A DNA stretch of 48,538 nucleotides, taken from the IMG/VR virus record IMGVR_UViG_2740892445_000002, one strand, 5' to 3'. Within the stretch, counting starts at the first letter, position 1. The number at the start of each line of letters is the position of its first letter. The translations under genes were made by a program, and so were the position numbers. Source of the DNA: a virus. Taxonomy: Duplodnaviria; Heunggongvirae; Uroviricota; Caudoviricetes. The notes beneath the pieces are model-generated. The model was not told the origin of the DNA and ran no database searches. It saw only the letters and a list, made by a program, of their open reading frames with translations. Positions 24,404-39,491 of this stretch are shown in pieces.

Positions 24404-24946
24404 ATGAACAGATACTCTAAACTTCAAATTCAATTACATTGGCTGACTCTCGTATTAATAGCTATAGCCTGTGCTGCAATGGAACTTCGAGGTTTGTTTC
24501 CTAAAGGGTCTTCCTCCTATTTGCTTATGAGAGAAACACATTACAATGCTGGTATATTTATTCTTCTACTGATGATAATAAGAGTAATTATCAATAATAA
24601 ATATATAACACCAGCTATTACGCCGCCCCCACCTGCATGGCAAATGATATCAGCCAAATTCATGCAAACCCTGTTATACATATCTTTTTTGGTGTTACCA
24701 GTATCAGGACTTGCAATCATGGTTTTTGGAGGTAAAGCATGGAGCCTTCTGGGGATTGATATTCCCACTTTCGCTAACACCGACGGAGAAGTAAAATCCG
24801 TAGCCAAAACTATTCATGAATCACTTGCAAATATTGGTTATTTATTAATCACACTCCATGCTGGCGCTGCATTAATTCATCATTATATTCAGAAGGACAA
24901 TACACTTGTCAGAATGCTCCCTGAGCACCAGCATGATAAAAAGTGA
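24404..24946 (+). CDS. cytochrome b561 family protein (moron in bor position)
   Basis: 180 aa, four predicted transmembrane helices, conserved His positions typical of the CybB/b561 family. Confidence 0.8.
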   Translation: MNRYSKLQIQLHWLTLVLIAIACAAMELRGLFPKGSSSYLLMRETHYNAGIFILLLMIIRVIINNKYITPAITPPPPAWQMISAKFMQTLLYISFLVLPVSGLAIMVFGGKAWSLLGIDIPTFANTDGEVKSVAKTIHESLANIGYLLITLHAGAALIHHYIQKDNTLVRMLPEHQHDKK

Positions 24947-27707: not shown

Positions 27708-29642
27708 TTACGCGTTATTCACTTCCACCACAATGCTGTCAATCAGCACCGGGTATGTTGCACCATTAGTGATATCGGTCACACGCAACTTGTCTGCCGT
27801 AAAAATTCCGACAGTGGACTGCGACAGCATGAACGGCGTCCCGTCCTTACCATCAATGACCGGCGTCACCTCAATACTGTTGTTACCGGCGAAACGGAAG
27901 CCCAACGTATGCCATTCGTTATTAAATGCACCGAATGACCCCAGTTTCATGTTTTGCGCCGTATCGCCCTTGTGGTACATCACGTTAAGGTCTGTCGCAT
28001 CGCTCTGAACGTAAAAAGATGCCAGCAGGTTATGACCAGCATTACCTTCCAGGGTAACCCCTTGTGGCAGGGCAGAAACCGGCCAGTACAGCGCCAGTGC
28101 GTACTGATTAGCCGTAAGCGCGCCATCAAGTTTAAAACGACAACTGACAAGGCCGCCTTTGCCCAGCAGGTCGGCACCATTACCGGCATCATGTTCCAGG
28201 TACCAGGAGGATTTTCCCGTCGCTTTGGTAAGCTTCATCGCCTTACCTCCACTGGCTCCGGCATCATCCACAACAGCGGCACTACCTCCGCCAGCCCCCC
28301 AGCCCTGTGGAGTCAGTTGTCCTTCCGAATCGCTGGCCCTGTATGCAAACAGTGTTGTCATCCCGGTAGTTTCACCCGGTGATGTTGATGGAGTGTCAGG
28401 TGATGGCTTCTCATCCGGTGGTGTCACGGCCTGCCCGCCCAGCAGTTCAGCCGTGCGCCCTGCATGGAGCAGAATAGAGGAGGCCAGACGGTCAGAAATG
28501 ATGCCCCTGCGTGCCCATGAACTGAAATGGCTGTCACGCTGTGTCGAGACAAAACTGCCCTGGGTACGGGATGCCGCACCGTAATACCCGACAGCCACAA
28601 TATCCGGATCTTCCGTCGGAGCATTCGTTGGCGTGTTCTGTCCATTCTCATCCGTCAGGAACGGTACAAAGAAAATATTCTGAGTTTCCTTGCCTTTGTA
28701 GCCACCGTATACCGCCTCATATTTATCGGTGCCAGCGTTTTTCCAGTAATATGTCGTATCACCACAAATCCACGGCACCGTGCCAGCATTTCCACTCACA
28801 CACTGCACAGCAAGCGGAGACAGGTCAGTTCTGAACTGCTGAACCATGGTCGTGAATAAACCATTATGCTGCTGACTTCCCGATGCAAGGTCTGCTTCTC
28901 CCTGCATCCAGACCACTGCCAGAAGTTTGTTTTTCGGGTTCTTCGCCAGCGCCGCTCTGGTACGGCTTACCAGGTCCTGATACAGAGGTTTACCGACTCC
29001 CCAGCGTGAAGAATCAGCGGAAGCACCGCTGGCCTCACTGAATGAACCGTCCGGCCCGGTGGTGAATGCTGACCCGCCACGGCAACAGGGCACCAGAAGT
29101 ATCCCGGCATTCTGCGGGATATAAGGCAGCAGTTTTTTGGCAATATGCAGCCCCTGACTCACACAACCATACTGCCCCTTGTTCAGGTCAGCTTTTGGGT
29201 GGTTTATCCCGCTCATGTCCTGCACATCATGCAGGCAGTGGTCTGCCGGAATGATGTCATTGTATTTACACGGCGTACCACCTGGCGTGACCGTGCTGCG
29301 GCGTGCCAGTTGCTTAATCCGTGGATCCGGGCGGTCAAATGAATCCGGTAACGGAAGCCCTTCACCATAGGCCATGCCATTTGACTGCCCCGCCAGAACA
29401 ACAACAAAGTAATATTCTGGCTCACTGACTGTGCTCATTACCGTACCGCTGTCACCCGACGGCTTCACCACAACAGGCGTGGTGACATCACCCTCCGCTG
29501 CAATCGCCTGCATCAGGGTATAAGGCGTAATAGCAACCGGACTGCCAAACGGCTGCCAGCCTTCCTTCAGTTTTTGTGACAGTCGCTCCGCAAGCTCTGA
29601 CGGTGAAGCCGCCCTGACCACACCATAATGCTTAAATGTCAT
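27708..29642 (-). CDS. nanS-p: prophage sialate O-acetylesterase (NanS-p-like, SGNH hydrolase)
   Basis: Start set at Met35 behind GGGAGGAG Shine-Dalgarno; protein resembles the NanS-p esterases found downstream of stx in Stx phages. Confidence 0.8.
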   Translation of the reverse strand: MTFKHYGVVRAASPSELAERLSQKLKEGWQPFGSPVAITPYTLMQAIAAEGDVTTPVVVKPSGDSGTVMSTVSEPEYYFVVVLAGQSNGMAYGEGLPLPDSFDRPDPRIKQLARRSTVTPGGTPCKYNDIIPADHCLHDVQDMSGINHPKADLNKGQYGCVSQGLHIAKKLLPYIPQNAGILLVPCCRGGSAFTTGPDGSFSEASGASADSSRWGVGKPLYQDLVSRTRAALAKNPKNKLLAVVWMQGEADLASGSQQHNGLFTTMVQQFRTDLSPLAVQCVSGNAGTVPWICGDTTYYWKNAGTDKYEAVYGGYKGKETQNIFFVPFLTDENGQNTPTNAPTEDPDIVAVGYYGAASRTQGSFVSTQRDSHFSSWARRGIISDRLASSILLHAGRTAELLGGQAVTPPDEKPSPDTPSTSPGETTGMTTLFAYRASDSEGQLTPQGWGAGGGSAAVVDDAGASGGKAMKLTKATGKSSWYLEHDAGNGADLLGKGGLVSCRFKLDGALTANQYALALYWPVSALPQGVTLEGNAGHNLLASFYVQSDATDLNVMYHKGDTAQNMKLGSFGAFNNEWHTLGFRFAGNNSIEVTPVIDGKDGTPFMLSQSTVGIFTADKLRVTDITNGATYPVLIDSIVVEVNNA

Positions 29643-29814
29643 TGCTCCTCCCGGACGGGATAATGTGTTAACTAAGATGAGAGAGCAGGTGACAGCCCCG
29701 GCCGCATGAAAGTTCTGAGAGGGAAGTGCTGCCTGCTGCTCCATTGCACAGATTAATTACTGTCTGGTAGTATTCAGTGGCTGATTAGAATACTTCACAT
29801 TTTGTTATTTTGTG

Positions 29815-29846
29815 CAGCCCGTTACCATTCGTAGCGGGCTTTTTTT
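29815..29846 (+). terminator. plus-strand hairpin plus T-run upstream of nanS-p
   Basis: AGCCCG-ttaccattcgta-CGGGCT followed by TTTTTTT. Confidence 0.4.
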
Positions 29847-29851
29847 GTCCA

Positions 29852-29876
29852 TAAAAAAGCCCCTCCGGAGAGGGGC
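29852..29876 (-). terminator. intrinsic terminator after repeat unit 1
   Basis: Minus-strand GCCCCUC-UCCG-GAGGGGC followed by UUUUUUAU. Confidence 0.6.
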
Positions 29877-29898
29877 ATACTAGCTATATATCCATTTA

Positions 29899-30026
29899 TC
29901 ATTGGCTGCGTGGTGCCGGGTGCCTCCCGGTGAGCTCAGTCTGGTGTCACTGAGCCCGCACATTCTCGATCCAAGTTATCGTCGGAGATAATACCTGATA
30001 CACCAGACGCCCCTCCGCACAGGGGG
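29899..30026 (-). repeat. tRNA-like cloverleaf repeat unit 1 (candidate structured ncRNA)
   Basis: Conserved blocks GGTGCCGGGTGCCTCCCGGTG and CCCCTCCGCACAGGGGGATTCACCA; terminal stem CGTGGTG/CACCACG; variable interior. Confidence 0.5.
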
Positions 30027-30263
30027 ATTCACCACGCGCAGAGAAGGATACTGAACACTATTTTCTCCAGGCAATATGCAATAACATGAAGTGTGAGATG
30101 ACTTACAATTATAAAAAACAGCCTACAGAATACTCCTAAATAAAGCCATATCAAAATGAGTAACACAAAAAGGAACCAGGCAAAAATTTACGAGCAGGTA
30201 TTATCCAGCAACAGTTCAGACGCCATAACTTATTGCCGATAGCTACCATCAATAATTTCTTTC

Positions 30264-30289
30264 ATAAAAAAGCCCCTCTGAAGAGGGGC
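30264..30289 (-). terminator. intrinsic terminator after repeat unit 2
   Basis: Minus-strand GCCCCUC-UUCA-GAGGGGC followed by UUUUUUAU. Confidence 0.6.
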
Positions 30290-30316
30290 TGACATACGCA
30301 TTTGCTTTCATCATCA

Positions 30317-30439
30317 ATATGGCGCCGGGTGCCTCCCGGTGCTCCATAACTGATTAATATGGAACGCGGTTTCATTCAGTTGCATTCATGAATAACACTC
30401 TAATCAGTCCGCCCCGCCGCTTAGGGGGATTCGCCATAT
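30317..30439 (-). repeat. tRNA-like cloverleaf repeat unit 2 (candidate structured ncRNA)
   Basis: Same blocks with compensatory changes (GGCGCC... / ...GATTCGCCA); terminal stem ATATGGCG/CGCCATAT; interior closed by ACTGATTA/TAATCAGT. Confidence 0.5.
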
Positions 30440-30574
30440 AAATTGAAAGTACTGAACACATCTGTCACAAACAATATGCAATTGTATGAATTGTGAGATT
30501 ATTATCAATAACACAAAATTACAGCTCTAGTACATAAACAGCAGATTAAACAAGAACAACAAAAGTATTGAATT

Positions 30575-30697
30575 GCACGGTGCCGGGTGCCTCCCGGTGA
30601 ATTCTGCAATGACCAGACAGAATCCGCAACTTGCTACTAACGCTAATGCGACCAAGCCTCAGTCATTATGCCCCTCCGCACAGGGGGATTCACCATG
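30575..30697 (-). repeat. tRNA-like cloverleaf repeat unit 3 (candidate structured ncRNA)
   Basis: Same conserved blocks; terminal stem GCACGGTG/CACCATGC (one mismatch); interior closed by AATGAC/GTCATT. Confidence 0.5.
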
Positions 30698-30827
30698 CGC
30701 TAAAAAAATACAAAACGTCACGTCACTCTGACAATACGAAGCACCATAAAATGTGAGTTATTTATCAATTCTTAATTCTGGTTACAGGAATATTCCGAAT
30801 CAAATCTTTAAAAAAAGAAATTCAAAT

Positions 30828-30930
30828 GCATGGTGCCGGGTGCCTCCCGGTGAACAGACCGTCCGTGATACCAGTAGGCAACACAGGAAATTAATGGTAT
30901 CACCCCACCGCACAGGGGGATTCACCATGC
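30828..30930 (-). repeat. tRNA-like cloverleaf repeat unit 4 (candidate structured ncRNA)
   Basis: Same conserved blocks; terminal stem GCATGGTG/CACCATGC; interior closed by GTGATACCA/TGGTATCAC. Confidence 0.5.
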
Positions 30931-31320
30931 AGGCGTTTTCTTAGCAAACTAACTGCGCGCCCGGCAACTCCCAACCACATAAAACGTGGAGTTTGTAGCA
31001 TTTATGCACATAACTCACAGGGGTTATCTTAAAAAAAGCTGACCATGCTTCCCCGGCAACGCAATAACTTTATTCCCTGAAGTGGCATCCCCCGTATTGT
31101 CGGCAGGCTCAAAAAGGAGCCAGTCATCTGAGGATGACTGGAAAAAGGAAAGATAAAAAATTATTCATCATACAACCTTCGTTGCAGGGGAGAATCCTGC
31201 GGTGCAGCAACATACAAAAACATAAGCCAACTAACAATATGCAGGCATAGCATTTTCGGATTTTGTTATATGGCACGGTAACTGAATGCTTACCTGATAT
31301 ACAGTCCGGTATAAAGTTGC

Positions 31321-31342
31321 AAAAAACCGCCAGTTAAGGCGG
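31321..31342 (-). terminator. intrinsic terminator downstream of tRNA genes
   Basis: Minus-strand CCGCC-UUAACU-GGCGG followed by UUUUUU. Confidence 0.55.
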
Positions 31343-31582
31343 CATTCAAACAGACAACAGGATTTTTTCGTAATTTTAACAACTTCGGGGTGGCGCATCG
31401 TCAGCCCCTGTCAGGAAGTACCAGAACTCCCACCAACAATATCCCCCCATTCAGCGTTATCAAACACAGCACAGAAACTATCAATGTTTGCTGTTACAGT
31501 TAGGGAAAAAACGATAAATACGCCACAGGCTCTTTTTGCTGTGAAGTAAAAACTGATCTGAAAGACTGCTCATCATTTATTT

Positions 31583-31660
31583 TGCTGGACCGTCACCGGG
31601 GACTCGAACCCCGCATTTTCAACATAAAAAGGTTGATGCTCTTTCCTGATGAGCTAGTGA
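31583..31660 (-). tRNA. tRNA-like gene with 8-nt anticodon loop CUUUUUAU (Lys-UUU-like; possible variant or pseudogene)
   Basis: Acceptor stem CCGTCAC/GTGACGG, D arm GCTC-ATCAGGAAA-GAGC, T arm CGGGG-TTCGAGT-CCCCG, encoded CCA; anticodon loop one nt too long. Confidence 0.55.
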
Positions 31661-31662
31661 CG

Positions 31663-31737
31663 GCATGGTTGCCTTGCTGGATTTGAACCAGCGACCTGGC
31701 GATTATGAGTCTCTCGCTCTCACCACTGAGCTAAAGG
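31663..31737 (-). tRNA. tRNA-like gene with CAU anticodon (Met/Ile2-like), imperfect acceptor and anticodon stems; possible pseudogene
   Basis: D arm GCTC-AGTGGTGA-GAGC, anticodon loop CTCATAA, T arm GCTGG-TTCAAAT-CCAGC, CCA; only 4 of 7 acceptor pairs form by my reading. Confidence 0.45.
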
Positions 31738-31780
31738 GCCGGGAACAGAATAATAATGGTGCGTAATTAATTCTGCAATC

Positions 31781-32839
31781 TCATCCCTTCTGGCTGACTA
31801 AATCCTGAACTTCCCTGACCGTCTGCTCAAAACGCTCAGTCTCCAGCTCAACGCCAATCGCACGACGCCCCAGTGCCAGCGCCGCTTTGACTGTCGAACC
31901 CGACCCCATGAAGAAATCCGCAACCAGGTCACCCGGACGACTACTCGCTCTGATTATCTGCTGCAGCATTTCTGCCGGTTTTTCGCACGGATGTTTCCCG
32001 GGATAGAACTGCACCGGTTTATGCGTCCACACATCGGTATATGGCACCTGCGCCGTCACGCCAAAATACCGCCGCAGATGCTTATATTCACACTGCAGTT
32101 CCGCATACTGCCGGTTCAGTGAGGTATACGCGGCAACCAGCTGGTGGTGTGGCTTTTCCAGTTCACCGCACTGATGTTTCTCTTCTGCCACCCTGGCAAA
32201 CAGCGCCTGCAATTTCAGATAATCGCGTTCATTCGGTAACTGCCACTGACTGGTACTGAACCAGTGCGACACCATATTTTTCTTGCCCGTGGCCTCTGCA
32301 ATCTGTTTTGCCGTTATCCCCAGGGCTGCACGCGCATCACGAAAGTAAGAAATCAGCGGGGCCATCACATGCTGTTTCAGTTCCCTGCCCTTCGCACCAT
32401 AGCCATCATCTTTCGGAAGGTACGGCCCCTGATAATGTTCCGCAAACAGAATGCGCTCTGTGGCCGGGAAATACGCACGCAGGCTTTCCTTGTTGCACCC
32501 GTTCCAGCGTCCGGATGGCTTCGCCCAGATGATATGGTTCAGCACATTAAAGCGTTCACGCATCATGATTTCGATGTCGGATGCCAGGCGATGCCCACAG
32601 AACAGGTAAATGCTTCCCTCGGGCTTTAATACCCGCCAGAAGTGCGCCAGACACTGGTCCAGCCACTTCAGGTAATCATCATCGCCATTCCACTGGTTAT
32701 CCCAGCCATTGGGTTTTACTTTAAAGTACGGCGGGTCCGTGACTATCAGATCGACAGAGTTTTCAGGTAAGGTCTGGATAAATTCCAGGCAGTCAGCGTT
32801 GATTAACTCACAACTGGATATTTTTACAGTGTTAAGCAT
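31781..32839 (-). CDS. DNA N6-adenine methyltransferase (orphan, beta-class)
   Basis: 352 aa with DPPY motif (IVTDPPYFKV) followed later by FxGxG-like FFMGSGST; no adjacent restriction gene. Confidence 0.85.
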   Translation of the reverse strand: MLNTVKISSCELINADCLEFIQTLPENSVDLIVTDPPYFKVKPNGWDNQWNGDDDYLKWLDQCLAHFWRVLKPEGSIYLFCGHRLASDIEIMMRERFNVLNHIIWAKPSGRWNGCNKESLRAYFPATERILFAEHYQGPYLPKDDGYGAKGRELKQHVMAPLISYFRDARAALGITAKQIAEATGKKNMVSHWFSTSQWQLPNERDYLKLQALFARVAEEKHQCGELEKPHHQLVAAYTSLNRQYAELQCEYKHLRRYFGVTAQVPYTDVWTHKPVQFYPGKHPCEKPAEMLQQIIRASSRPGDLVADFFMGSGSTVKAALALGRRAIGVELETERFEQTVREVQDLVSQKG

Positions 32840-32988
32840 GGATCATTAAGCCTGTCTCTGATAGGCTCATTCTGCTTTTGCGCAAAGCAGTGGGCCTGAG
32901 GTTTGCTTGTGATCCCGATGCATGAGCAGATGGCTGGTGAGTGCCTCTAACACCACCAGCCGCCCATTTACCACAAATAAAAAAGCCT

Positions 32989-33186
32989 TCAGGACTGAAG
33001 GCGTCTGTAACAACCGAACTGATAGTCTGCCAGACCCGCCATAACAAGCTGGGTCAGTATTAACTGGCAGCGCTCGCGTGAAAGGTAAGTATTCTGCGCA
33101 ATCTCCCCGACTGTCGCCGGTTCGGTGACACTTAATTCATTAAACACCACTCTGGCGGTTTCGGTCATATCCTGCTGTTTTAGCAT
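32989..33186 (-). CDS. small protein (about 65 aa), first ORF after tR'
   Basis: Internal Met MLKQQDMTETARVV... preceded by AAAGGGAAAAAG; longer ORF would begin inside the terminator region. Confidence 0.45.
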   Translation of the reverse strand: MLKQQDMTETARVVFNELSVTEPATVGEIAQNTYLSRERCQLILTQLVMAGLADYQFGCYRRLQS

Positions 33187-33308
33187 GTCTTTTTCCCTTT
33201 TCCGGTTAACGTGACACACCAATAACTCTTGTCGAAAAAGCCAGCAAGCTGAAAGACCGGTATTCACCACCACCAGCGCGTTTAACGTACTGGACCGATT
33301 TCAGTCAT

Positions 33309-33330
33309 AAAAAACCCGCCAGGCGGCGGG
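33309..33330 (-). terminator. tR'-like intrinsic terminator downstream of late promoter
   Basis: Minus-strand CCCGCC-GCCU-GGCGGG followed by UUUUUUAU. Confidence 0.65.
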
Positions 33331-33379
33331 GTGTAAAAACTCTTCTAACGTCAGGCATAAAACGCCCATTGTTAGAGCA

Positions 33380-33407
33380 AAATTACCACAGATTCCGGAA
33401 AAATCAA
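33380..33407 (-). promoter_or_regulatory. late promoter pR'-like (TTGATT-16-TAATTT) immediately downstream of Q
   Basis: Sigma70-like hexamers with 16-nt spacer between Q stop and tR'-like terminator; coordinates approximate. Confidence 0.55.
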
Positions 33408-33412
33408 CAACC

Positions 33413-34234
33413 CTATCGCGTTACCCTCTTCAACTGCCACTCTGCCCATGCCTCTGCAATATCAAACCGGACCACCAGCGTGTCATAGAATTGCTTAACT
33501 GTTTTTTCCCATGAAGCGCGTGTTATCTGATTTGTCACCTCACATATGGCATCAAATGCCTCCGTTGAAGGTAATCTTTCATAGCCACGCCCACCACAAC
33601 GCTGACAGTTTCTGAAAACCGGCATACCTCGTTTTTCAGACTCTTCACGATGAATGGCAACACCGCGCCCACGGCAATCTTTACAGGCAGTGGAGACCTC
33701 CCCCTTTCCACCACACTCCGGACAGGCAACTTTTACCACCTCCCTGACTTTTTTCCATTCCTCCCAGTAAGACGGATACACGCCTTTTGTACACTTTGCC
33801 CATACTGGCGGCTTACCATCCGGATACTGAATCTTGTTTGTAAAAATCTCGCTTTCAATAAATTTTTTTCCGTGACAGCATGGGCACTGTTTTTTGCTCG
33901 CCGCGCTCCGGGCATAATCCTCAAACGCATACGAAGCCATAATGCGCATCACTACCGGTTTTATTTCTGCCGGAAGTTTTCTTAACGCTGCCACGCGATC
34001 ACACCGACTGAGAGCGTATTCTGCCAGCAGTTCTGTTGCCCGCTCCCTGTCATTCATACTGATGCCCATTTTCCCAAGGAACGCAGAAAACCCCATCTCA
34101 GCCCGATTCTGTGTCATGCCCTGCGCTGCCATCACATCAGTGATACTCAGCGCATCTTTTGACGTTGAGGCCGATGCATCCGTCAGACCCGGTGATTTTG
34201 GGGAATAGTATTTTGGTAAATCTTCCAGTTTCAT
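33413..34234 (-). CDS. Q: late-gene antitermination protein Q (zinc-finger Q family of lambdoid prophages)
   Basis: 273 aa, four CxxC motifs (CPCCHGKK, CPECGGKG, CKDCRGRG, CQRCGGRG); located directly upstream of pR'/tR'. Confidence 0.8.
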   Translation of the reverse strand: MKLEDLPKYYSPKSPGLTDASASTSKDALSITDVMAAQGMTQNRAEMGFSAFLGKMGISMNDRERATELLAEYALSRCDRVAALRKLPAEIKPVVMRIMASYAFEDYARSAASKKQCPCCHGKKFIESEIFTNKIQYPDGKPPVWAKCTKGVYPSYWEEWKKVREVVKVACPECGGKGEVSTACKDCRGRGVAIHREESEKRGMPVFRNCQRCGGRGYERLPSTEAFDAICEVTNQITRASWEKTVKQFYDTLVVRFDIAEAWAEWQLKRVTR

Positions 34235-34605
34235 TCTTTTGCCTGCCCGCCATGCGTTATTTCGTAAATTTTCACACCAAGCCGTCCGCCTGGAACAGGC
34301 AGACCGCGCACAATATTAATTTCATCAAACTGCTCGTCGTCGATAAGTAGTCCTGCATGCGTCAGCGCATCCAGTAGCGCTTTCAGAATGTTGTCCAGGT
34401 CACGACTGCGCTTATCCGGTGGCTCTGCAATAATTTTTATTGTCAGCCTTCCGGGCAGGCTTAATTTCAACCGCTGCTGGCGAACAATAAGCGCTACTGC
34501 CCGGCGATAGCGCTTTCCCTCCTCAGATATAAAATATGTGCTGCCACGGCGTCGCCAGTAAGTGTTCACCGTCGGCGGGTAAGGTAAAACCAAATCTATG
34601 AGCAT
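34231..34605 (-). CDS. rusA: Holliday junction resolvase RusA
   Basis: 124 aa, ...PPTVNTYWRRRG..., ...RDLDN.LKALLDALT.AG...DD.QF... RusA motifs. Confidence 0.9.
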   Translation of the reverse strand: MLIDLVLPYPPTVNTYWRRRGSTYFISEEGKRYRRAVALIVRQQRLKLSLPGRLTIKIIAEPPDKRSRDLDNILKALLDALTHAGLLIDDEQFDEINIVRGLPVPGGRLGVKIYEITHGGQAKE

Positions 34606-34617
34606 CAGTCACCTCTT

Positions 34618-35667
34618 TTACCCGAGCACGCCAGTCGCAAAGGCGTGATCAAGAAAACGAAAAATTAACTCAACCTGGGACCCGTACTTTTTCTCAAACT
34701 CCAGCGGGTCAGCATGAAGTTCGTTGTGGTGCTCCCGGCACAACGGTAGCGTGAAAATATCGTGGGATTTTGTCCCCATTCCGCCCTGACCATGACCAAT
34801 CAGGTGATGCGGATCGTCGGCTGGCTTACCACAACACACGCACGGCTGTGTCTTTACCCAGCGCGTGTATTTCTCATTTACCCAACGGCGACGTTTAGGC
34901 CGCTTCATGAACGATTCAGGAGACTCCGGATCAACGGCTATACTGACCACCGCTTTTTTCTGTGGTGGATTTTGTTGCTGGTGGACGTGAAGTGGCAGCG
35001 CAATATTTTTTGTGCGCTGCTTCAGTATGCTGGTGGCGGTCTGCGCTCCCGGAATGATGTCACTCTCACGATATACGGAGCGGATTTTTTCCACCGGTAA
35101 TCCCAGCGAACGACGCAATACAGACTCAGGAAGCGCATCAGCCACCTGATTGCAGACCGCCCACCAGGATAATTCAGCCAGCGATAATTCACGTTCCTGT
35201 GCGCCATTCATTGCATGCCGAATGACGTCAATCATCCAGGCAACCAGATTCTGTTGAGCAAGTTGCTCCAGTGAATCAGATGTCTGCTCCCGCAGGTGGT
35301 TGTCGCAGTGCCAGCACAACACCATCGCGCCGGTACCGTAACGGTGAATGACGGTTTCGCTGTGATGATAATCGCCGTGTGGCCACTGGCAGGATTTCAC
35401 GTGACGTAATAACCAGTCAGACAGTACACCAGCGCCACCCGCAGCACGGATCACCCGCTCATCGCTGAAAAATGGCAGTAATGATTTATCTTCCGCCAGC
35501 GGCTGGCGAACGGCAGGTACACCCCCAGACGGCAGAGCACGCATGCTTTTCGGTTCCGGCTCCACCAGCACCCTGCCGCAATGAAAAACAGGCAGTGATT
35601 CGCGTCCGGGCTTAAGGACCACCAGGCCAAGTTCCGGCACCAGAACAGGTCGAAGTAATACCCGCAC
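34618..35667 (-). CDS. DUF968-type prophage protein with C-terminal HNH-like zinc motif (YdfU-like)
   Basis: 349 aa; C-terminal ...CVCCGKPADDPHHLIGHG...CREHHNELH... Confidence 0.65.
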   Translation of the reverse strand: MRVLLRPVLVPELGLVVLKPGRESLPVFHCGRVLVEPEPKSMRALPSGGVPAVRQPLAEDKSLLPFFSDERVIRAAGGAGVLSDWLLRHVKSCQWPHGDYHHSETVIHRYGTGAMVLCWHCDNHLREQTSDSLEQLAQQNLVAWMIDVIRHAMNGAQERELSLAELSWWAVCNQVADALPESVLRRSLGLPVEKIRSVYRESDIIPGAQTATSILKQRTKNIALPLHVHQQQNPPQKKAVVSIAVDPESPESFMKRPKRRRWVNEKYTRWVKTQPCVCCGKPADDPHHLIGHGQGGMGTKSHDIFTLPLCREHHNELHADPLEFEKKYGSQVELIFRFLDHAFATGVLG

Positions 35668-35668
35668 G

Positions 35669-35959
35669 TTACCTCCAGATACGTTGCTGGAATGTGCGGG
35701 ACGGACGCGGTGGATGTTCGGAATAAGGGAGCCTGACAGAGATTATCCAGTGACGATAATCGAGGCTGATGGCTTTCTTAACCTCGTATCCGCGCCTGCG
35801 GTAACACTGAATCAGCCATTCGGCCTGTTCTTCAGTGCATGGGGGATGCTGGTACCAGTCGGTTTTAAATACGTGCGAATGCCGCCCCCGCTTAATGGCC
35901 GGGACGGCTTCAGAATTGTGGGATTTTATACGTTGCGCCATCGGGTTCTCCGGTGACAC
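35669..35959 (-). CDS. hypothetical protein
   Basis: 96 aa ORF, start overlaps upstream gene stop; no family recognised. Confidence 0.4.
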   Translation of the reverse strand: MSPENPMAQRIKSHNSEAVPAIKRGRHSHVFKTDWYQHPPCTEEQAEWLIQCYRRRGYEVKKAISLDYRHWIISVRLPYSEHPPRPSRTFQQRIWR

Positions 35960-36107
35960 AGCAGGTGCCAGTTGTTCAGGCTGGCGTGCGAATTGTAAAC
36001 CAGAATGTCAAGAAAAAACAAAACCCGCAGAAGCGGGTTAAGTGCGGGTGCGTTGAGGATGCCTGACACATCAGAGGTGGCGAGGGATTTCTCCCTCGCC
36101 GGGTCTC

Positions 36108-36263
36108 TTACTTCTCAGATTCGTAAGCTGTGAAGACAGCGACCTCCGTCTGGCCGGTTCGGATTCGTACCTCGCAGAGGTCTTTCCTCGTTACCAGTAC
36201 CGTTACAACGACGGTAATACAGATGACGATCAGGGCGATTAGCATCGCCTTTTGCTGCTTCAT
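36108..36263 (-). CDS. hokD: Hok-family type I toxin (HokD/RelF-like)
   Basis: 51 aa MKQQKAMLIALIVICITVVVTVLVTRKDLCEVRIRTGQTEVAVFTAYESEK, near-identical to my recollection of HokD. Confidence 0.9.
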   Translation of the reverse strand: MKQQKAMLIALIVICITVVVTVLVTRKDLCEVRIRTGQTEVAVFTAYESEK

Positions 36264-36440
36264 AGCCTGCTGCTCCTTGCCTTTCGGCGCGTAAGAGGCT
36301 AATCTAAGTGTGCAAGTCATAGATATGGCCTCAGATTAATGTTAAGCGTCCTGCAAGACGCATAATGTTAACTGGGGCTTTTCTCTGTCTGCCTTACGTC
36401 GGCATGCCCGAGGCAGACAGCCTCAAGCACCCGCAGCAAT
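36264..36440. promoter_or_regulatory. hok mRNA leader / mok start / antisense Sok region
   Basis: Minus-strand leader GGGUGCUUGAGGCUGUCUGCCUC... resembles hok mRNA 5' end; in-frame upstream start MTCTLRL... Confidence 0.45.
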
Positions 36441-36513
36441 TCTACTTAACTCTCGCTTTACCGCAAACCGTTTTACCCGATATGGGAATGCCCATATCGC
36501 AATGAATTCAGTT

Positions 36514-36612
36514 TCACATCCGATCCATCAAAAACACAACCAGGCAGTAAACGCCCACAACAGAAATAACGGCCAGCGCGCCTTCCATTGCCAGTGAAAT
36601 ATCATCCGACAT
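36514..36612 (-). CDS. small hydrophobic peptide (32 aa)
   Basis: MSDDISLAMEGALAVISVVGVYCLVVFLMDRM behind AAGGAGGG Shine-Dalgarno; below track cutoff, found by hand. Confidence 0.35.
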   Translation of the reverse strand: MSDDISLAMEGALAVISVVGVYCLVVFLMDRM

Positions 36613-36647
36613 ATTCCCTCCTTTGGTGTTAATCCCGGCGAACGTTT

Positions 36648-36731
36648 TTACCCCCACCGACAAATAACATATACTAAAAAAGCGATAGCCATAGCAACGC
36701 CTGTAATTGCAAATGCTTCAGGCCAGTTCAT
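36648..36731 (-). CDS. small hydrophobic peptide (27 aa)
   Basis: MNWPEAFAITGVAMAIAFLVYVICRWG; ATG overlaps stop of upstream 189-aa gene (ATGA). Confidence 0.3.
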   Translation of the reverse strand: MNWPEAFAITGVAMAIAFLVYVICRWG

Positions 36732-37297
36732 TGGCGCACTTTCTGCGGCGGTTCAGGTAGAAGCATCCGATTGATTACATCGCATTCAGGGATGCTGATA
36801 TCATCACCAAGCCATCCTTGACCTTCAGACCAGCATTGCACGTAATACCCGTATTCTGTGTTCACTACGCACCACTGCCCGTCATCCGGCATTCGCTCAC
36901 TACAGCTTATCCAACCATCCGGAGTTACCGGATGGTTGGTTGACGTTTCCGAGATTTCCCGAAAATTATTGGTTGACGAACCCTTATGTTCCCGAAAGTT
37001 TCCAGCCTGAAGCATGGCGGCGCGGTGACACCAGATAATCCAGCCAAGCGCCATATCCCATGCCATGTATTCTCTATCGCCATTTTTTGCTCTGCGGCGA
37101 TCTACAGATTCTCCGAAACGCTTCTCCATAAATAATTCATAGGCTGCTCGTTCATCCGATACTGCTGCCAGTGATGCCAGTGCAATCCGTGCCAGCTCTT
37201 CCGCTTCTTCTGCTGGAAGCACAACGTTGCTACCAGGTCCGTATGTTTCGCGCCACTGCTTGATTGTCAGTAGTCGCTCTTTGGTAATAGTGATCAT
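36728..37297 (-). CDS. DUF551-like prophage protein
   Basis: 189 aa; C-terminal Trp/Cys-rich WISCSERMPDDGQWCVVNTEYGYYVQCW... Confidence 0.55.
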   Translation of the reverse strand: MITITKERLLTIKQWRETYGPGSNVVLPAEEAEELARIALASLAAVSDERAAYELFMEKRFGESVDRRRAKNGDREYMAWDMALGWIIWCHRAAMLQAGNFREHKGSSTNNFREISETSTNHPVTPDGWISCSERMPDDGQWCVVNTEYGYYVQCWSEGQGWLGDDISIPECDVINRMLLPEPPQKVRQ

Positions 37298-37809
37298 GCC
37301 GCGTTTCCTTCTTTCTTATTAACAATTACACCGTCATATATTTCATTAAGGTGCCCTCTCAACTCCATGCGCCTTAATGCAGATAACATGTAATCGCATT
37401 CAACCTGCTTATTTCCGGTAAATGGCTTATCGTCAGGATTACCCCAACAGCAATTACCCTTGGGCCACCCATATACTTTCCGTACTCTTCCATTAACAAC
37501 GTGAAGTAATCCCCAGCCAGGTGGTAAATCCTCAATTGAAATAATTCCCGGCTCACTAATAAAGAATCGCCAGTCCCCCATGCCAAGAGAGGGATTTTTA
37601 CGGAAACGCTTTTTTCTATCTGCCAACAAGTCAGCACGAGAACACTTCGCCTCTATCAGGCATGATGCTGAATTTCTGAATCCCATAGCATCTGGTTGTT
37701 CTCCAGTACTGGTTACAGCAACAAAGCGGTCATGAAAGCAAACCTTGAACCCGTTGCGCTTAAGGAACCTGTAGGCAATCTGACAGAGTTCGCGGTGTGT
37801 TAACGCCAT
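37294..37809 (-). CDS. hypothetical protein with PD-(D/E)xK nuclease-like motif
   Basis: 171 aa; ...EQPDAMGF...CLIEAKCS... (PD then E-x-K 12 residues later). Confidence 0.45.
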   Translation of the reverse strand: MALTHRELCQIAYRFLKRNGFKVCFHDRFVAVTSTGEQPDAMGFRNSASCLIEAKCSRADLLADRKKRFRKNPSLGMGDWRFFISEPGIISIEDLPPGWGLLHVVNGRVRKVYGWPKGNCCWGNPDDKPFTGNKQVECDYMLSALRRMELRGHLNEIYDGVIVNKKEGNAA

Positions 37810-37810
37810 C

Positions 37811-38170
37811 TCATTCTCCTTTGATGCGAATGTTTACAACCTGACAAGCCTCTTTGAGTACCCAGTCAACAGCATCTTTCCATGCACCTGTTTCGACTGG
37901 TGGATTCTCACGCTTTACCTGTTCATAAAAGCGCACGGCTTTAACTAGTCCTTCTGATGTCACCGGGGCTGGCGGGGCCGTGAATAACGCCTGAATTTCA
38001 TAGTTCGGTCTGTCGTTACAATCTTCTTTTGTCTGGACATATTTCCAGTCACCAGCCCACTGCTTCCCCTGAAAGTCTGTAACGCCTTTTTTCACGTAGC
38101 GATATCGCCATGCCACTGGTTTTGCCTGCCCTGCCTTTTCATGCCCTTCCTGATAATTAATCTCGCTCAT
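37811..38170 (-). CDS. hypothetical protein
   Basis: 119 aa, start overlaps stop of upstream small ORF. Confidence 0.45.
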   Translation of the reverse strand: MSEINYQEGHEKAGQAKPVAWRYRYVKKGVTDFQGKQWAGDWKYVQTKEDCNDRPNYEIQALFTAPPAPVTSEGLVKAVRFYEQVKRENPPVETGAWKDAVDWVLKEACQVVNIRIKGE

Positions 38171-38343
38171 TCATCGCCCCACTCATCACAATATGCTTCG
38201 ACCGGAGTTTTCCCTGCTTCATAATCATCACGCCATGCTTCAGCATCAGCGGCACTTCCACCGCGTAACTCTGCATAATCCATTAACAGTTCATGCCATT
38301 CTTCAAAACTGGCGTTATATTTAGTTGAACCAAAATCAGCCAT
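38171..38343 (-). CDS. small hypothetical protein (57 aa)
   Basis: Hand-found ORF MADFGSTKYNASFEEWHELLMDYAEL..., coupled to both neighbours. Confidence 0.35.
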
Positions 38344-38518
38344 TTTGTCCTTCCTCTTCGTCTTTTATTTCGTGGTATGAGTAATTGCAGTAGTTAAAGA
38401 AAATTTCTTTTGCTTCGTCATGAATTTCATCAGGTGTTGCGTCATCATCTACTTCGAATACATCCTCAAAATCTCCACCAGCTATTCCCGTTTCAATAAT
38501 TATTTTGAATTTTCGCAT
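38336..38518 (-). CDS. small acidic hypothetical protein
   Basis: 60 aa, highly acidic. Confidence 0.4.
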   Translation of the reverse strand: MRKFKIIIETGIAGGDFEDVFEVDDDATPDEIHDEAKEIFFNYCNYSYHEIKDEEEGQNG

Positions 38519-38611
38519 TTCACTACCGCCATTTCGAACGGCCTCCTGATGTTCTGAGGGTGCAGAAATCCCTCCGGTTAAGGATTAAATTTTTAACAGT
38601 GCTAAATTTAA

Positions 38612-38968
38612 TTATTCAGTTCTTGATTTTGCCGCCCTGCGTATCCGCGCTTTCGCGTTACGCTCAATCTGAATTAGCTTTTCTATATTTCTCCGCCTTT
38701 CCCGTTCCTCCTGGCGCAAGAGCCTTACATCATCTGCCAGTCTGGTTTCTCTTTTCGCCACAGAGAGCATCCAGTCAAATGGCTCCACAACTGCACCGCA
38801 GATTTTACAGCGGACCTGACGCTCTTTTTCGTCAACCCGGACAGAGGCGTGATGACAATATGGTCTTTCCGATGGCTCATAAAGAAAATTAACCTGATTA
38901 CGTGGGTCATCCTCTTTTACCGGAAATAAAACAATATTACTTAACTCATCTTCTGGTTTTATTTCCAT
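38612..38968 (-). CDS. hypothetical zinc-ribbon protein
   Basis: Start at internal Met behind AAAGGAGAGG; C..HH...C..C motif (CHHASVRVDEKERQVRCKICG). Confidence 0.5.
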   Translation of the reverse strand: MEIKPEDELSNIVLFPVKEDDPRNQVNFLYEPSERPYCHHASVRVDEKERQVRCKICGAVVEPFDWMLSVAKRETRLADDVRLLRQEERERRRNIEKLIQIERNAKARIRRAAKSRTE

Positions 38969-39025
38969 GCTCCTCTCCTTTGATGCGAATGCCAGCGGCA
39001 ATTGAAGCCTGATAGCTAATTTCAC

Positions 39026-39451
39026 TCACAGCACCACCTCCTGAAAATTCCCCTGATAAAACGCCAGCACGCGCTGCATAACTTCGCTCTTCCGGCACTC
39101 GCTACAGATTATGTTCTGACGCCTGTCATAACGACGTATTTCTCCGTCTGGTAACGACCAGATAAGGTCCGGATCAACCACAGGTGTTTTTTTCTTCAGC
39201 TTTGCCCTTGAGAGTTTTTTGCGGGCGTTTTGCCAGTCCTTACGAGCCTGTTCAGACGGGAATAACCCGTAACCAGAGTTGTATACATCACCACTGGCAA
39301 CCAGCTCTCTGGCGAGAACGCTCATCAGATATCTTGTCGCACCTGTCTTGGCTTCCAGTTGCCGTAACGTCTCGCGCCCACTCCGGCGTACTAGCTCAAC
39401 AACCTGCCCTTTAATTTTTTCTCGCTCTTCTTGTGTAAAAACTTTTGCCAC
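39026..39451 (-). CDS. hypothetical protein with C-terminal CxxC
   Basis: 141 aa ORF in early operon. Confidence 0.45.
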   Translation of the reverse strand: MAKVFTQEEREKIKGQVVELVRRSGRETLRQLEAKTGATRYLMSVLARELVASGDVYNSGYGLFPSEQARKDWQNARKKLSRAKLKKKTPVVDPDLIWSLPDGEIRRYDRRQNIICSECRKSEVMQRVLAFYQGNFQEVVL

Positions 39452-39491
39452 AAGCCCTCCTGAAAATTACCTCATGACCTGAAATAAACAC

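What the first reader, a model, noticed from the sequence alone, without database searches (positions are those of the whole stretch)
31781..32839. Orphan adenine methyltransferase in the late operon
A beta-class N6-adenine methyltransferase (DPPY then FxGxG) lies between pR'/tR' and the tRNA genes with no cognate endonuclease, suggesting anti-restriction or epigenetic regulation during lytic growth.
Basis: partly seen in the sequence, partly recalled or inferred. Interest (0 to 1): 0.35.

Follow-up and report, generated by a model that had tools for sequence, protein, structure and literature searches.

The report
Prophage non-specific adenine methylase, RNA-gated
The gene is a close relative (89% identical) of M.EcoGII, the well-known phage enzyme that methylates almost every adenine, sitting at its usual place at the head of a lambdoid prophage's late operon, so it is ordinary; the less ordinary part is a conserved folded RNA leader just upstream that hides its start codon.

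Summary
Window 31781-32839 (- strand) is an intact 352-aa beta-class amino-methyltransferase: Pfam PF01555, E 2.6e-45, DPPY at aa 35-38, FMGSG at aa 310-314. It lies downstream of Q, a lambda-like pR' and tR', and upstream of two tRNA genes. No restriction gene was found in the prophage.

It is not a new kind of gene. [quoted passage not shown] Homologues occur in 2501 of 5426 complete E. coli genomes and in many Stx2 phages at the same position. The most likely role is blanket m6A protection of progeny DNA after Q antitermination. That role is inferred, not shown.

- The methylase is usually paired with a 65-aa putative winged-helix ORF directly upstream (50 of 71 loci from different Enterobacterales species).
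- A ~135-nt structured leader abuts its ATG. The leader shows covariation, has no Shine-Dalgarno sequence, pairs the start codon and has no Rfam match.

Related leaders precede C5-methylase, ParB-like and holin genes in other phages. The methylase itself rates low interest; the leader RNA is the part worth following.

The parts
33413..34234 (-). Late-gene antiterminator Q (273 aa) with a zinc-finger segment
   Evidence: Pfam PF03589 Antiterm E 1e-51, plus DnaJ_CXXCXGXG E 7.4e-07 at 29.8 bits, below its 32.7 cut-off. PHROG 127/25523 'anti-termination protein Q-like'.
33363..33407 (-). Candidate late promoter pR': -35 TTGATT 33407-33402, TG-extended -10 TAATTT 33385-33380, then the sigma-pause-like element AACAATGGGCG 33373-33363
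   Evidence: Read from the sequence. The motif AAC(G/A)ATGGG after a TTG..-TA..T promoter recurs directly downstream of Q in L004, SfV and L031. It resembles the lambda pR' initial transcribed region (my own knowledge). The consensus scan did not list it because the -10 matches only 3 of 6. Candidate only.
33308..33330 (-). tR' intrinsic terminator: CCCGCC GCCT GGCGGG followed by TTTTTTAT
   Evidence: Terminator scan: 6 G-C pairs and a T-run. Present in the MFE fold. SfV carries an annotated terminator at the same place.
32989..33186 (-). 65-aa ORF, putative winged-helix protein (RefSeq WP_000917768.1; PHROG 331, unknown function), conserved partner of the methylase
   Evidence: PHROG 331 E 1e-37. 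A weak Pfam TrmB hit, E 0.006, below cut-off. 335 homologues, many named 'TrmB family transcriptional regulator' by NCBI. It lies directly upstream of the methylase in 50 of 71 loci from different species, in 100 of 114 IMG/VR loci, and in SfV, mEp460 and Morganella phage IME1369_02. The AF2 model has pLDDT 70 with three core helices, and no significant PDB fold match.
32976..33002 (-). Second terminator-like hairpin overlapping the stop codon of the small ORF: GCCTTCAG TCCT GAAGGC plus TTTTTTATTT
   Evidence: Terminator scan and fold. The stem sequence varies among relatives and is often not followed by a U-run (alignment A1).
32840..32975 (-). Conserved structured leader RNA abutting the methylase ATG. 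Domain 1 is a long hairpin, AAAUGGGCG-[GGCUGGUGG..CCACCAGCC]-CAUC-UGCUCAUG. Domain 2 is closed by GGAUCA..UGAUCC, which occludes positions -7..-2; in this window GCAU:AUGC also pairs the start codon.
   Evidence: MFE equals the centroid for both domains, z -3.7 against shuffles; z -4.5 for the longer stretch. On a MAFFT alignment of 42 relatives, 93.6% of cells pair versus 30-42% with slid partners, and 11 of 39 pairs show double changes versus 4.4+-1.5 in shuffles, 0 of 500 reaching that. Model R1 finds it in 44 of 85 sources, one full-length match each, 43 ending exactly at the ATG. None of 41 sequences has GGAG/GAGG/AGGA at -18..-4. No Rfam 15 match at E<=1.
31781..32839 (-). M.EcoGII-family beta-class N6-adenine methyltransferase, 352 aa (100% DNA identity to the gene for WP_034172999.1 in E. 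coli M18)
   Evidence: It is 310/349 identical to M.EcoGII. PADLOC MTase_II PDLC03265 E 4e-161.
32726..32737 (-). Catalytic motif IV, D35-P-P-Y38
   Evidence: Translation. Aligned with the DPPY of solved beta-class methylases and of M.EcoGII.
31898..31912 (-). SAM-binding motif I, F310-M-G-S-G314
   Evidence: Translation. Aligned with the FMGSG of 9c3u/8urk and of M.EcoGII.
31667..31741 (-). tRNA with CAU anticodon (annotated tRNA-Ile in the M18 RefSeq record; the ileZ position of Stx phages)
   Evidence: ARAGORN, Rfam tRNA 47.6 bits, RefSeq annotation.
31586..31663 (-). tRNA-Lys(UUU)-like gene with an 8-nt anticodon loop
   Evidence: ARAGORN reports 'tRNA-?(Lys|Lys)(tttt)'. A relative has a 7-nt loop.

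Best explanation
The ORF encodes a functional M.EcoGII-type methyltransferase: a beta-class enzyme that transfers methyl groups from SAM to N6 of adenine with essentially no sequence specificity.

It is the second ORF and first large gene of the late transcription unit, after the 65-aa ORF. In the lysogen, pR' transcripts stop at tR'. Any read-through RNA folds into a leader that buries the SD-less start region, so the toxic enzyme is not made. After induction, Q-modified RNA polymerase reads through tR' and the second hairpin. The enzyme is then made while phage DNA replicates, and adenines in progeny genomes are methylated wholesale. That makes the packaged DNA resistant to the many Type I, II and III restriction enzymes that m6A blocks in the next host.

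Shown here: identity, intact motifs, position, absence of a restriction partner, and existence and conservation of the leader and the small ORF. Taken from published work on the 89%-identical enzyme: non-specific activity, silence in lysogens, toxicity and in vitro protection from restriction. Inferred: timing of expression, the protective role in vivo, and that the leader limits translation.
For: - **Family identity.** 89% identity (310/349) and 93% similarity over the full length to M.EcoGII (sequence taken from supplementary file 5 of PMC11551740). About 88% identity holds across residues 160-237, which that paper models as the four-helix target-recognition domain.
- **Published properties of M.EcoGII.** It methylates up to 99% of adenines, blocks all 18 m6A-sensitive restriction enzymes tested (twelve 6-bp and six 4-bp cutters), is not expressed in its host, and is deleterious when expressed constitutively (PMC5778455). 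[quoted passage not shown] Homologues gave no methylation motif in growing O111 STEC.
- **Motifs and fold family.** Intact.
- **Position.** After Q, a lambda-like pR' and tR'. The same order Q - terminator - small ORF - methylase - (tRNAs, stx) - lysis is seen in Stx2a_1447, SfV, mEp460 and a Morganella phage. pR' is constitutively active and terminated at tR' in Stx phage lysogens (PMC7547250).
- **No restriction gene**.
- **Leader.** Covariation, start-codon pairing and lack of an SD.
- **Wide retention.** 2501 of 5426 complete E. coli genomes, up to 7 copies each, and Enterobacterales from Escherichia to Proteus, Xenorhabdus and Gilliamella. This argues for selection in phages.
Against: - No experiment shows that any M.EcoGII homologue is expressed during induction, or that it protects progeny phage. 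I found no such paper.
- Murray et al. report that fully M.EcoGII-methylated plasmids transform E. coli poorly. Heavy methylation can therefore carry a cost, and m6A-dependent Type IV enzymes cut such DNA (PMC11037411).
- Activity and lack of specificity are extrapolated from an enzyme that differs at about 39 residues.
- The two downstream tRNA genes look damaged, so the prophage may be decaying.
- How an mRNA without an SD and with a paired AUG gets translated at all is unexplained.
Confidence: 0.65

Rival explanations
1. The enzyme's main purpose is not protection of progeny DNA. Instead it acts on the dying host or on RNA. Blanket m6A on host DNA, or on RNA (M.EcoGII also methylates RNA), would disturb host replication, mismatch repair, transcription or defence systems during lytic growth.
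For: M.EcoGII methylates single-stranded DNA, DNA:RNA hybrids and RNA, and is deleterious to cells. The gene is placed at the very start of the late operon, before the lysis genes.
Against: Late expression leaves little time for host reprogramming. Other methylase classes with no reported RNA activity (a C5-cytosine methylase and a ParB-like ORF) occupy the same leader-plus-slot in other phages. That fits a DNA-modification role shared by all of them.
Confidence: 0.15
2. It is a sequence-specific orphan methylase used for epigenetic control (Dam- or CcrM-like) of phage or host genes.
For: Orphan beta-class methylases such as CcrM do this. CcrM is a detectable relative.
Against: All NCBIfam hits, including CcrM (73.8 bits against a cut-off of 830), fall far below their cut-offs. 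The protein is 89% identical to a demonstrably non-specific enzyme, including the recognition domain. Homologues are silent in growing cells, and no motif has been assigned to them. The gene lies behind tR' and a start-occluding leader.
Confidence: 0.07
3. It is a non-functional passenger in a decaying prophage.
For: The tRNA-Lys gene has an 8-nt anticodon loop, and the tRNA-Ile-like gene has a weakened acceptor stem compared with a relative. The stx-equivalent slot holds only sRNA repeats. Truncated copies of this methylase exist elsewhere (L108; most of the 259 matching phage records cover only part of the gene).
Against: The reading frame is full length with all motifs intact. Leader, small ORF, Q, lysis and all structural genes are intact. 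The same gene is 100% identical in strain M18, and the surrounding 6.6-kb segment is 99.9% identical in both M18 and CI5.
Confidence: 0.08
4. It is the modification half of a restriction-modification system whose endonuclease lies nearby.
For: PADLOC files it under 'Type II methyltransferase' models. Five early-region ORFs have no Pfam match.
Against: The neighbours are a 65-aa ORF and tRNA genes. No endonuclease appears in the annotation of the near-identical M18 late region. The unannotated ORFs lie at least 4 kb away (37294-42621 versus 32839), in the early (replication/immunity) region. Across 71 loci the conserved neighbours are Q, the small ORF and lysis genes. A context-free methylase has no site for a cognate enzyme to share.
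Confidence: 0.02

Closest known systems
M.EcoGII (GenBank EGT69837.1), the non-specific adenine DNA/RNA methyltransferase of E. coli O104:H4 C227-11, and its paralogue M.EcoGI
   Same: 89% identity over the full length. Same length class (352 versus 349 aa). Same DPPY...FxGxG order and a conserved central recognition region. Both are prophage-borne. Phage homologues about 93% identical to M.EcoGII sit at the same Q - small ORF - methylase - tRNA position.
   Different: About 39 substitutions and a 3-residue longer C-terminus. Activity of this allele is untested. The M.EcoGII sequence I used was machine-read from a supplementary PDF and may contain a few reading errors.
'DNA methylase' genes between Q and ileZ-argN-argO-stx2 in Stx2-converting phages (e.g. 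Stx2a_1447, WGPS2, 1720a-02, phiP27), and SfV orf48 / mEp460_053
   Same: 84-92% DNA identity to the Stx2-phage genes. Same module order, including the 65-aa ORF, in Stx2a_1447, SfV and mEp460; the R1 leader motif was confirmed in those three.
   Different: This prophage carries no stx genes. Their slot holds four tandem STnc100-family sRNA copies. The tRNA set is Ile/Lys rather than Ile/Arg/Arg.
Phage Mu Mom and other induction-only protective DNA modification enzymes of temperate phages
   Same: Silent in lysogens, toxic if mis-expressed, a late function, and broad protection against restriction (review PMC12707154). Mom is also known for multi-layered control that includes translation (my own knowledge).
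   Different: Unrelated protein and chemistry: Mom makes N6-carbamoylmethyl-adenine (my own knowledge). No homology was tested or expected.
Structured 5' leaders that sequester translation start sites (riboswitch expression platforms, phage lambda S-gene sdi structure)
   Same: A conserved fold pairs the initiation region. In holin-type relatives the 3' strand of domain 2 has a second, mutually exclusive partner next to the SD, and the predicted ensemble is split between the two.
   Different: No match to any of the 4227 Rfam 15 families. No ligand or protein partner is known. The resemblance is in architecture only.

Membership tests
Beta-class N6/N4 amino-methyltransferases (Pfam PF01555) | Significant match to the family profile above the curated cut-off | tested here: met
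   155.5 bits against a cut-off of 26.7, E 2.6e-45, profile positions 1-219 of 221.
Beta-class N6/N4 amino-methyltransferases (Pfam PF01555) | Catalytic motif IV (D/S)PP(Y/F) lies N-terminal to SAM motif I FxGxG, with the recognition domain between them | tested here: met
   DPPY at aa 35-38 and FMGSG at aa 310-314, with about 270 residues between. Both motifs align to solved beta-class enzymes.
M.EcoGII family (sequence-non-specific adenine methylases of enterobacterial prophages) | Close full-length sequence similarity to M.EcoGII, including the central recognition domain | tested here: met
   310/349 identical with 2 gaps. About 88% identity across residues 160-237, the modelled four-helix recognition domain.
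M.EcoGII family (sequence-non-specific adenine methylases of enterobacterial prophages) | Encoded in a lambdoid prophage or phage, without a restriction partner | tested here: met
   Complete lambdoid prophage next to potC. No endonuclease found.
M.EcoGII family (sequence-non-specific adenine methylases of enterobacterial prophages) | Methylates adenine in any sequence context (DNA, ssDNA, RNA) | not testable with these tools
   Needs enzyme assays or a methylome. Inferred from 89% identity only.
M.EcoGII family (sequence-non-specific adenine methylases of enterobacterial prophages) | Not expressed in the lysogen | not testable with these tools
   Consistent with the position behind tR' and a start-occluding leader. 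No expression data.
Type II restriction-modification system | Adjacent cognate restriction endonuclease gene | tested here: not met
   Flanked by a 65-aa ORF and tRNA genes. No endonuclease in the annotation or in the Pfam and PADLOC scans.
Dam-type (alpha-class, GATC) phage methylases such as the T4 Dam and VT2-Sa Dam | Motif I N-terminal to motif IV; similarity to Dam | tested here: not met
   The motif order is the reverse. No Dam family appears among the Pfam or NCBIfam hits.
CcrM (NCBIfam NF050803) cell-cycle methylase | Score above the equivalog cut-off | tested here: not met
   73.8 bits against a cut-off of 830.
Any curated RNA family (Rfam 15), for the leader at 32840-32975 | Covariance-model match | tested here: not met
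   No match at E<=1 in window 29500-33600. No relevant match in four loci carrying variant leaders.

The most novel reading that the evidence does not exclude
The ~135-nt leader (window 32975-32840) may belong to an undescribed family of cis-regulatory RNAs found just upstream of a late gene, usually a DNA methylase, in lambdoid phage late operons. The family appears in front of M.EcoGII-type methylases, a C5-cytosine methylase and a ParB-like gene. In both of those cases its 'GGUCAU' strand pairs with the start codon itself. It also appears in front of holin-like genes, where a second pairing partner makes a predicted bistable switch over the SD.

The leader could act as a fail-safe. It would keep lethal late genes untranslated on RNA from leaky read-through in lysogens, and open only under lytic conditions. 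Possible triggers are altered co-transcriptional folding behind Q-modified polymerase, a protein such as the small upstream ORF, or a metabolite. None of these was tested.
Probability: 0.4. Interest if true: 0.6.

Novelty: new member of a known kind. Interest (0 to 1): 0.33.

Why it matters
The methylase itself adds nothing new. It is one more copy of a very common, biochemically characterised enzyme family, and its likely role has been proposed in print.

What could matter is the control layer. M.EcoGII is a widely used chromatin-footprinting and RNA-engineering reagent, and it is notoriously toxic to clone. Knowing that its natural gene is preceded by a conserved start-occluding RNA and a small partner ORF gives a testable account of how phages keep it silent. 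If the leader is a real switch shared by methylase and holin genes, it would be a new regulatory element in one of the best-studied gene-regulation systems in biology, the lambdoid late operon.

Tried and rejected
- **Solved structure of M.EcoGII.** None is in the PDB; the best hits are generic beta-class enzymes at 25-35% local similarity. I did not model the methylase, because a published AF2 description exists for the 89%-identical enzyme.
- **Supplement of Murray et al.** It is not held. The M.EcoGII sequence came from the SUPREM paper's supplement instead.
- **Structure of the 65-aa ORF.** The AF2 model had only pLDDT 70, and Foldseek against the PDB gave nothing below E=4. 'Winged helix' rests on weak sequence evidence and on NCBI's name for it.
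- **Default RNAalifold on the MAFFT alignment.** It gave a poor 16-pair consensus dominated by invariant columns. I instead took the helices that recur in single-sequence MFE folds. This biases the paired-cell counts towards that structure. The double-change counts and the slid controls are the fairer measures.
- **Model-fitted alignment A3.** It gives stronger numbers (28 of 41 pairs with double changes). It includes 17 weak, partly spurious hits and is fitted to the model, so I do not rely on it.
- **'The leader is more conserved than the genes'.** Only mildly true: mean pairwise identity is 0.80 for the leader against 0.72 for the methylase CDS and 0.61 for the small ORF.
- **Is the invariant TGTG.AAATGGGCG a promoter or a sigma-pause element?** The -11 A is not conserved, so a promoter is unlikely. 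The resemblance to the pR' element AACAATGGGCG 400 nt upstream is unexplained.
- **Is the leader a binding site for one Q family?** Rejected, because it also follows an unrelated 113-aa Q in Stx2a_1447.
- **17-mer scan of IMG/VR.** It returned many chance hits inside a primase-like ORF; these were ignored.
- **Literature searches.** Searches for the leader, and for in-phage tests of M.EcoGII homologues, found nothing relevant. One search call and one paper look-up failed on syntax.
Full report
**1. What is at the coordinates**

Window 31781-32839 is a single intact ORF on the - strand: ATG start, 352 aa, and the end coordinate includes the stop. It matches Pfam PF01555 (N6_N4_Mtase) at 155.5 bits, E 2.6e-45, over almost the whole profile. 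In the translation, the catalytic tetrapeptide DPPY is at residues 35-38 and the SAM-binding FMGSG at 310-314. Motif IV before motif I defines the beta class. The nearest solved structures are all beta-class enzymes (two unnamed methyltransferases 9c3u/8urk, RsrI, CcrM, MboIIA, DpnA). NCBIfam gives only sub-threshold hits to specific equivalogs such as CcrM (73.8 bits against a cut-off of 830).

**2. Where it sits**

The window is a complete lambdoid prophage integrated next to potC. Positions 1-34406 are 99.95% identical to E. coli strain M18 (NZ_CP010219.1). The early region beyond 34406 is mosaic.

Reading the - strand in the direction of transcription, the order is:
- A DUF968/HNH protein (35667-34618), then RusA (34605-34231).
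- A 273-aa Q antiterminator of family PF03589 (34234-33413).
- TTGATT-16 nt-TAATTT directly after Q's stop, followed by AACAATGGGCG (33407-33363). The same arrangement, with AACGATGGG, follows Q in E. albertii, SfV and a Buttiauxella prophage. It resembles the lambda pR' promoter with its sigma-dependent pause element; that comparison rests on my own knowledge of lambda. I treat it as the late promoter, with moderate confidence.
- A strong intrinsic terminator (six G-C pairs and a T7 run) at 33330-33315.
- A 65-aa ORF (33186-32989), then a second terminator-like hairpin (33002-32985).
- About 135 nt of leader, then the methylase.
- Two tRNA genes (31741-31586).
- About 1.8 kb with no long ORF.
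- A nanS-p-like esterase (29744-27708), then the lysis genes.

**3. Is it an orphan?**

The flanking genes are a 65-aa ORF and tRNAs. RefSeq's annotation of the near-identical M18 stretch lists no endonuclease other than RusA and the nin-region DUF968/HNH protein. Pfam on ten ORFs of the divergent early region found none, although five had no hit at all. PADLOC matched only methylase models and found nothing for the neighbours. Across 71 loci from different species, the conserved neighbours are Q, RusA, DUF968, the small ORF and lysis genes. I accept 'orphan'.

**4. What it is**

The gene is 84-92% identical in DNA to the 'DNA methylase' genes that lie between Q and ileZ-argN-argO-stx2 in many Stx2-converting phages and in phage 1720a-02. 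Murray et al. (2018) name 1720a-02 as carrying a close homologue of M.EcoGII.

I recovered the M.EcoGII protein sequence from a supplementary table of the SUPREM paper. BLASTP gives 310/349 identities (89%) and 93% positives with two single-residue gaps. That sequence was machine-read from a PDF, so a few mismatches may be reading errors. Identity is about 88% over residues 160-237, which that paper models as the four-helix, HTH-containing recognition domain.

M.EcoGII methylates adenine in any context. It reaches about 86% of adenines in vivo and up to 99% in vitro. It acts on ssDNA, DNA:RNA hybrids and RNA. It blocks all 18 m6A-sensitive restriction enzymes tested (twelve 6-bp and six 4-bp cutters). 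It is not expressed in its native host and harms cells when expressed constitutively. A 2025 review files it with phage Mom as an induction-only protective modification. Homologues in O111 STEC produced no methylation motif during growth.

The family is very common. Full-length copies occur in 2501 of 5426 complete E. coli genomes, with up to seven places per genome. Relatives at 55-92% protein identity occur in Enterobacterales from Escherichia to Proteus, Morganella, Xenorhabdus, Photorhabdus and Gilliamella. This is therefore a new allele of a known, characterised kind.

**5. How it most likely works**

The chain is part shown and part inferred.
- Shown: intact catalytic and SAM motifs, family identity, position downstream of a late promoter and terminator, and no restriction partner.
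- From the literature on lambdoid phages: pR' fires constitutively and its transcripts end at tR' in lysogens, and Q lets polymerase read through after induction.
- Inferred: the enzyme appears only after Q acts, methylates replicating phage DNA without regard to sequence, and the packaged genomes then resist m6A-sensitive restriction in the next host.

I found no paper that tests this in a phage. Two published observations cut the other way. Fully methylated plasmids transform poorly, and m6A-dependent Type IV nucleases cleave M.EcoGII-treated DNA. A role directed at the host or at RNA cannot be excluded. I give it 0.15, against 0.65 for progeny protection.

**6. A conserved partner ORF**

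The 65-aa ORF (PHROG 331, function unknown) has 335 detectable homologues. Many are named 'TrmB family transcriptional regulator' by NCBI, and a few carry a DprA-like winged-helix Pfam hit.

It lies on the same strand, 45-154 nt upstream of the methylase, in these places:
- 50 of 71 loci from different species, even where it is only about 40% identical.
- 100 of 114 IMG/VR loci.
- SfV (orf47-orf48), mEp460 and Morganella phage IME1369_02.

In the phage collection it is found in 57 records, close to the 45 with a near-full-length match in the megablast search. An AF2 model (pLDDT 70) shows three helices consistent with an HTH core, but Foldseek found no significant PDB match. Its function is unknown. 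I record it as a linked gene, not as an explained one.

**7. A conserved structured leader**

The roughly 135 nt between the second hairpin and the ATG are conserved from Escherichia to Proteus and Morganella. Alignment A1 (42 sequences) has 53 invariant columns. Mean pairwise identity is 0.80, against 0.72 for the first 600 nt of the methylase gene and 0.61 for the small ORF. Single-nucleotide indels and the lack of codon periodicity argue against coding.

Single-sequence folds agree on two domains:
- Domain 1 is a long hairpin, AAAUGGGCG / GGCUGGUGG...CCACCAGCC / CAUC / UGCUCAUG.
- Domain 2 is a branched-looking irregular hairpin. It is closed by GGAUCA:UGAUCC and AAGC:GCUU, and its 3' strand ends one or two nucleotides before the AUG. 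In this window GCAU:AUGC extends the helix over the start codon itself.

The window's leader folds 3.7 SD below shuffles, with MFE and centroid in agreement on both domains.

On the MAFFT alignment, 93.6% of cells form standard pairs, against 30-42% when the partners are slid. Eleven of 39 pairs carry double (compensatory) changes, against 4.4+-1.5 in column shuffles, and none of 500 shuffles reached that. The clearest cases are the domain-1 stem in Proteus (GACUGUAAAAGUG...CACCUUUACAGUC, and GACAGUGAGGAUG...CAUCCCCGCUGUC) and the AAGC:GCUU helix, which is replaced by GGA:UCC or CGG:CCG in Proteus and Morganella.

Caveat: the structure was derived from these same sequences, so the paired-cell figure is inflated. 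The double-change and slid-control figures are the fairer tests.

None of 41 sequences has GGAG, GAGG or AGGA at -18..-4. A covariance model (R1) finds the motif in 44 of 85 sources: one full-length match each, ending exactly at the methylase ATG in 43 of them (L079, which holds only a partial methylase match, is the exception), with no strong hit (E < 0.01) anywhere else in 730 kb. Xenorhabdus and Photorhabdus carry a shorter variant. Rfam 15 has no match at E<=1.

**8. The leader is not tied to this methylase family**

I scanned IMG/VR for domain 1 alone, so the retrieval was independent of any protein.
- 111 have an M.EcoGII-type start codon 82-84 nt downstream.
- 2 lie too close to a contig end to judge.
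- 8 have no full methylase downstream.

The eight exceptions are informative:
- In L090 and relatives the leader precedes a C5-cytosine methylase (motif GTPCQAFS). The strand GGUCAU pairs with AUGACC, where AUG is the start codon.
- In L193 it precedes a ParB-like ORF, and GGUCAU pairs with GUGACU, a GUG start.
- In five of the eight (L099, L109, L119, L151, L199), and in about a dozen further loci from the second scan, it lies between Q and small membrane (holin-like) genes. There the 3' strand of domain 2 (GGAUUUGUUCA) can pair either with the 5' strand (CGAACAAAG) or with a downstream UGAACAAAUCC that adjoins a CCCC...GGGG hairpin over the SD.
- L108 carries an internally deleted methylase.

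For L099 the MFE takes the first of those two pairings and the centroid takes the second, which suggests a bistable switch.

R1, trained only on M.EcoGII-type leaders, detects all these variants (E 4e-9 to 2e-3), with compensatory changes in the stems. The leader also occurs behind an unrelated 113-aa Q in Stx2a_1447, so it is not a site for one Q family.

My reading is that this is a family of cis-acting leaders that gate translation of a late gene, often a toxic one, at or near the head of the late operon. What opens them is unknown. Literature searches found no description of it. I cannot exclude that it is known under a name I did not search.

**9. Verdict**

The finding is real and correctly described, and its main interpretation is the accepted one. 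The gene is an ordinary member of the M.EcoGII family, already annotated in RefSeq. The proposed 'target motif determination' would most likely return no motif.

As given, the finding deserves a low score. The linked small ORF, and especially the structured start-occluding leader and its relatives in front of other methylase classes and holins, are the parts that merit follow-up. They raise the overall interest to about one third.

Noticed in passing
window 29847-30960, - strand (copies at 30960-30782, 30727-30530, 30465-30260, 30067-29847): Four tandem copies of the prophage sRNA family STnc100 (Rfam RF02076; 77-133 bits against a gathering score of 47) fill the slot between the tRNAs and the esterase gene, where Stx phages carry stx. 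Terminator-like hairpins end at least the last two copies (30290-30271 and 29876-29859); two more lie further upstream at 31343-31326 and 31141-31120. RefSeq annotates nothing in this slot in M18. A 2026 preprint links STnc100 to PasD sRNAs and to esterase genes, and reports that copies of the related pasA and pasD genes lie far apart rather than in tandem.
   Followed up: partly
window 31586-31663, - strand: The tRNA-Lys(UUU)-like gene has an 8-nt anticodon loop (CUUUUUAU; ARAGORN reports a 4-base anticodon 'tttt'). Strain 95-3322 has the normal 7-nt loop (CUUUUAU) in an otherwise 96% identical gene. The extra T is also present in M18 and CI5 (100% matches). Only 39 of 5426 complete E. coli genomes carry this tRNA. 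It could be a natural +1 frameshift-suppressor-like tRNA or simply a damaged gene.
   Followed up: partly
window 31667-31741, - strand: Compared with strain 95-3322, the tRNA with a CAU anticodon (annotated tRNA-Ile) has lost a G and changed a C in the 3' acceptor strand (GGCAACC versus GGGCCACC). It also has a mismatch in the anticodon stem. The Rfam match covers only model positions 4-67. It is possibly a decaying gene.
   Followed up: partly
L099:6055-6256 (-), and L109, L211, L213, L218, L229, L236 and others (IMG/VR): Holin-type variants of the leader. Domains 1 and 2 are followed by a segment (UGAACAAAUCC + CCCC...GGGG) that offers the domain-2 3' strand an alternative 10-12-bp partner next to the holin SD. 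The MFE and the centroid of L099 choose different partners. It looks like a translational switch in front of the lysis genes.
   Followed up: partly
L090:3303-3517 (+), L210, L231, L235; L193:7679-7893 (+): The same leader family precedes a C5-cytosine methylase (GTPCQAFS motif) and a ParB-like ORF. In both, the conserved GGUCAU strand pairs with the start codon itself (AUGACC and GUGACU).
   Followed up: partly
window 33363-33373 and 32957-32964, - strand: The octamer AATGGGCG occurs twice: in the pR' initial transcribed region (AACAATGGGCG) and as the invariant 5' strand of the leader (AAATGGGCG). The upstream copy is only found where the Q type is the same (window and L004, with ATGGGCT in SfV and L031). 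Whether the resemblance means anything (for example a sigma-pause-like element in the leader) is open.
   Followed up: partly
window 32840-32975: UGGGC (5' strand of domain 1) and GCCCA (domain 2): Both pentamers are invariant in all four leader types and are complementary. RNAalifold paired them. This conflicts with the local domain-1 outer stem, which shows only one-sided changes. It may be a pseudoknot or an alternative pairing. It cannot be tested by covariation because neither side varies.
   Followed up: no
phage collection hits; L108:2144-2455: Of 259 phage records matching the methylase gene, only 45 cover at least 80% of it. Many Stx2 phage records, and some E. coli genomes (for example H72, last 110 nt only), keep just a fragment. 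L108 shows an internal deletion that fuses the leader region to the last 62 codons. The gene is often lost or truncated while its surroundings stay.
   Followed up: no
window ~8596-9759 (- strand) and ~24404-24946 (+ strand), coordinates transferred from the M18 annotation: Two low-GC inserts (GC 0.39-0.40 in the 1-kb profile) correspond in M18 to an OmpC-family porin gene placed among the tail genes and a cytochrome b gene in the lysis region. These are probable morons.
   Followed up: no
window 34407-48538: The early and immunity region is mosaic relative to strain M18 (84-94% identity in patches), while the late region is 99.95% identical. The recombination junction lies inside or just upstream of rusA. 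In M18, RusA is annotated as a shorter protein.
   Followed up: no
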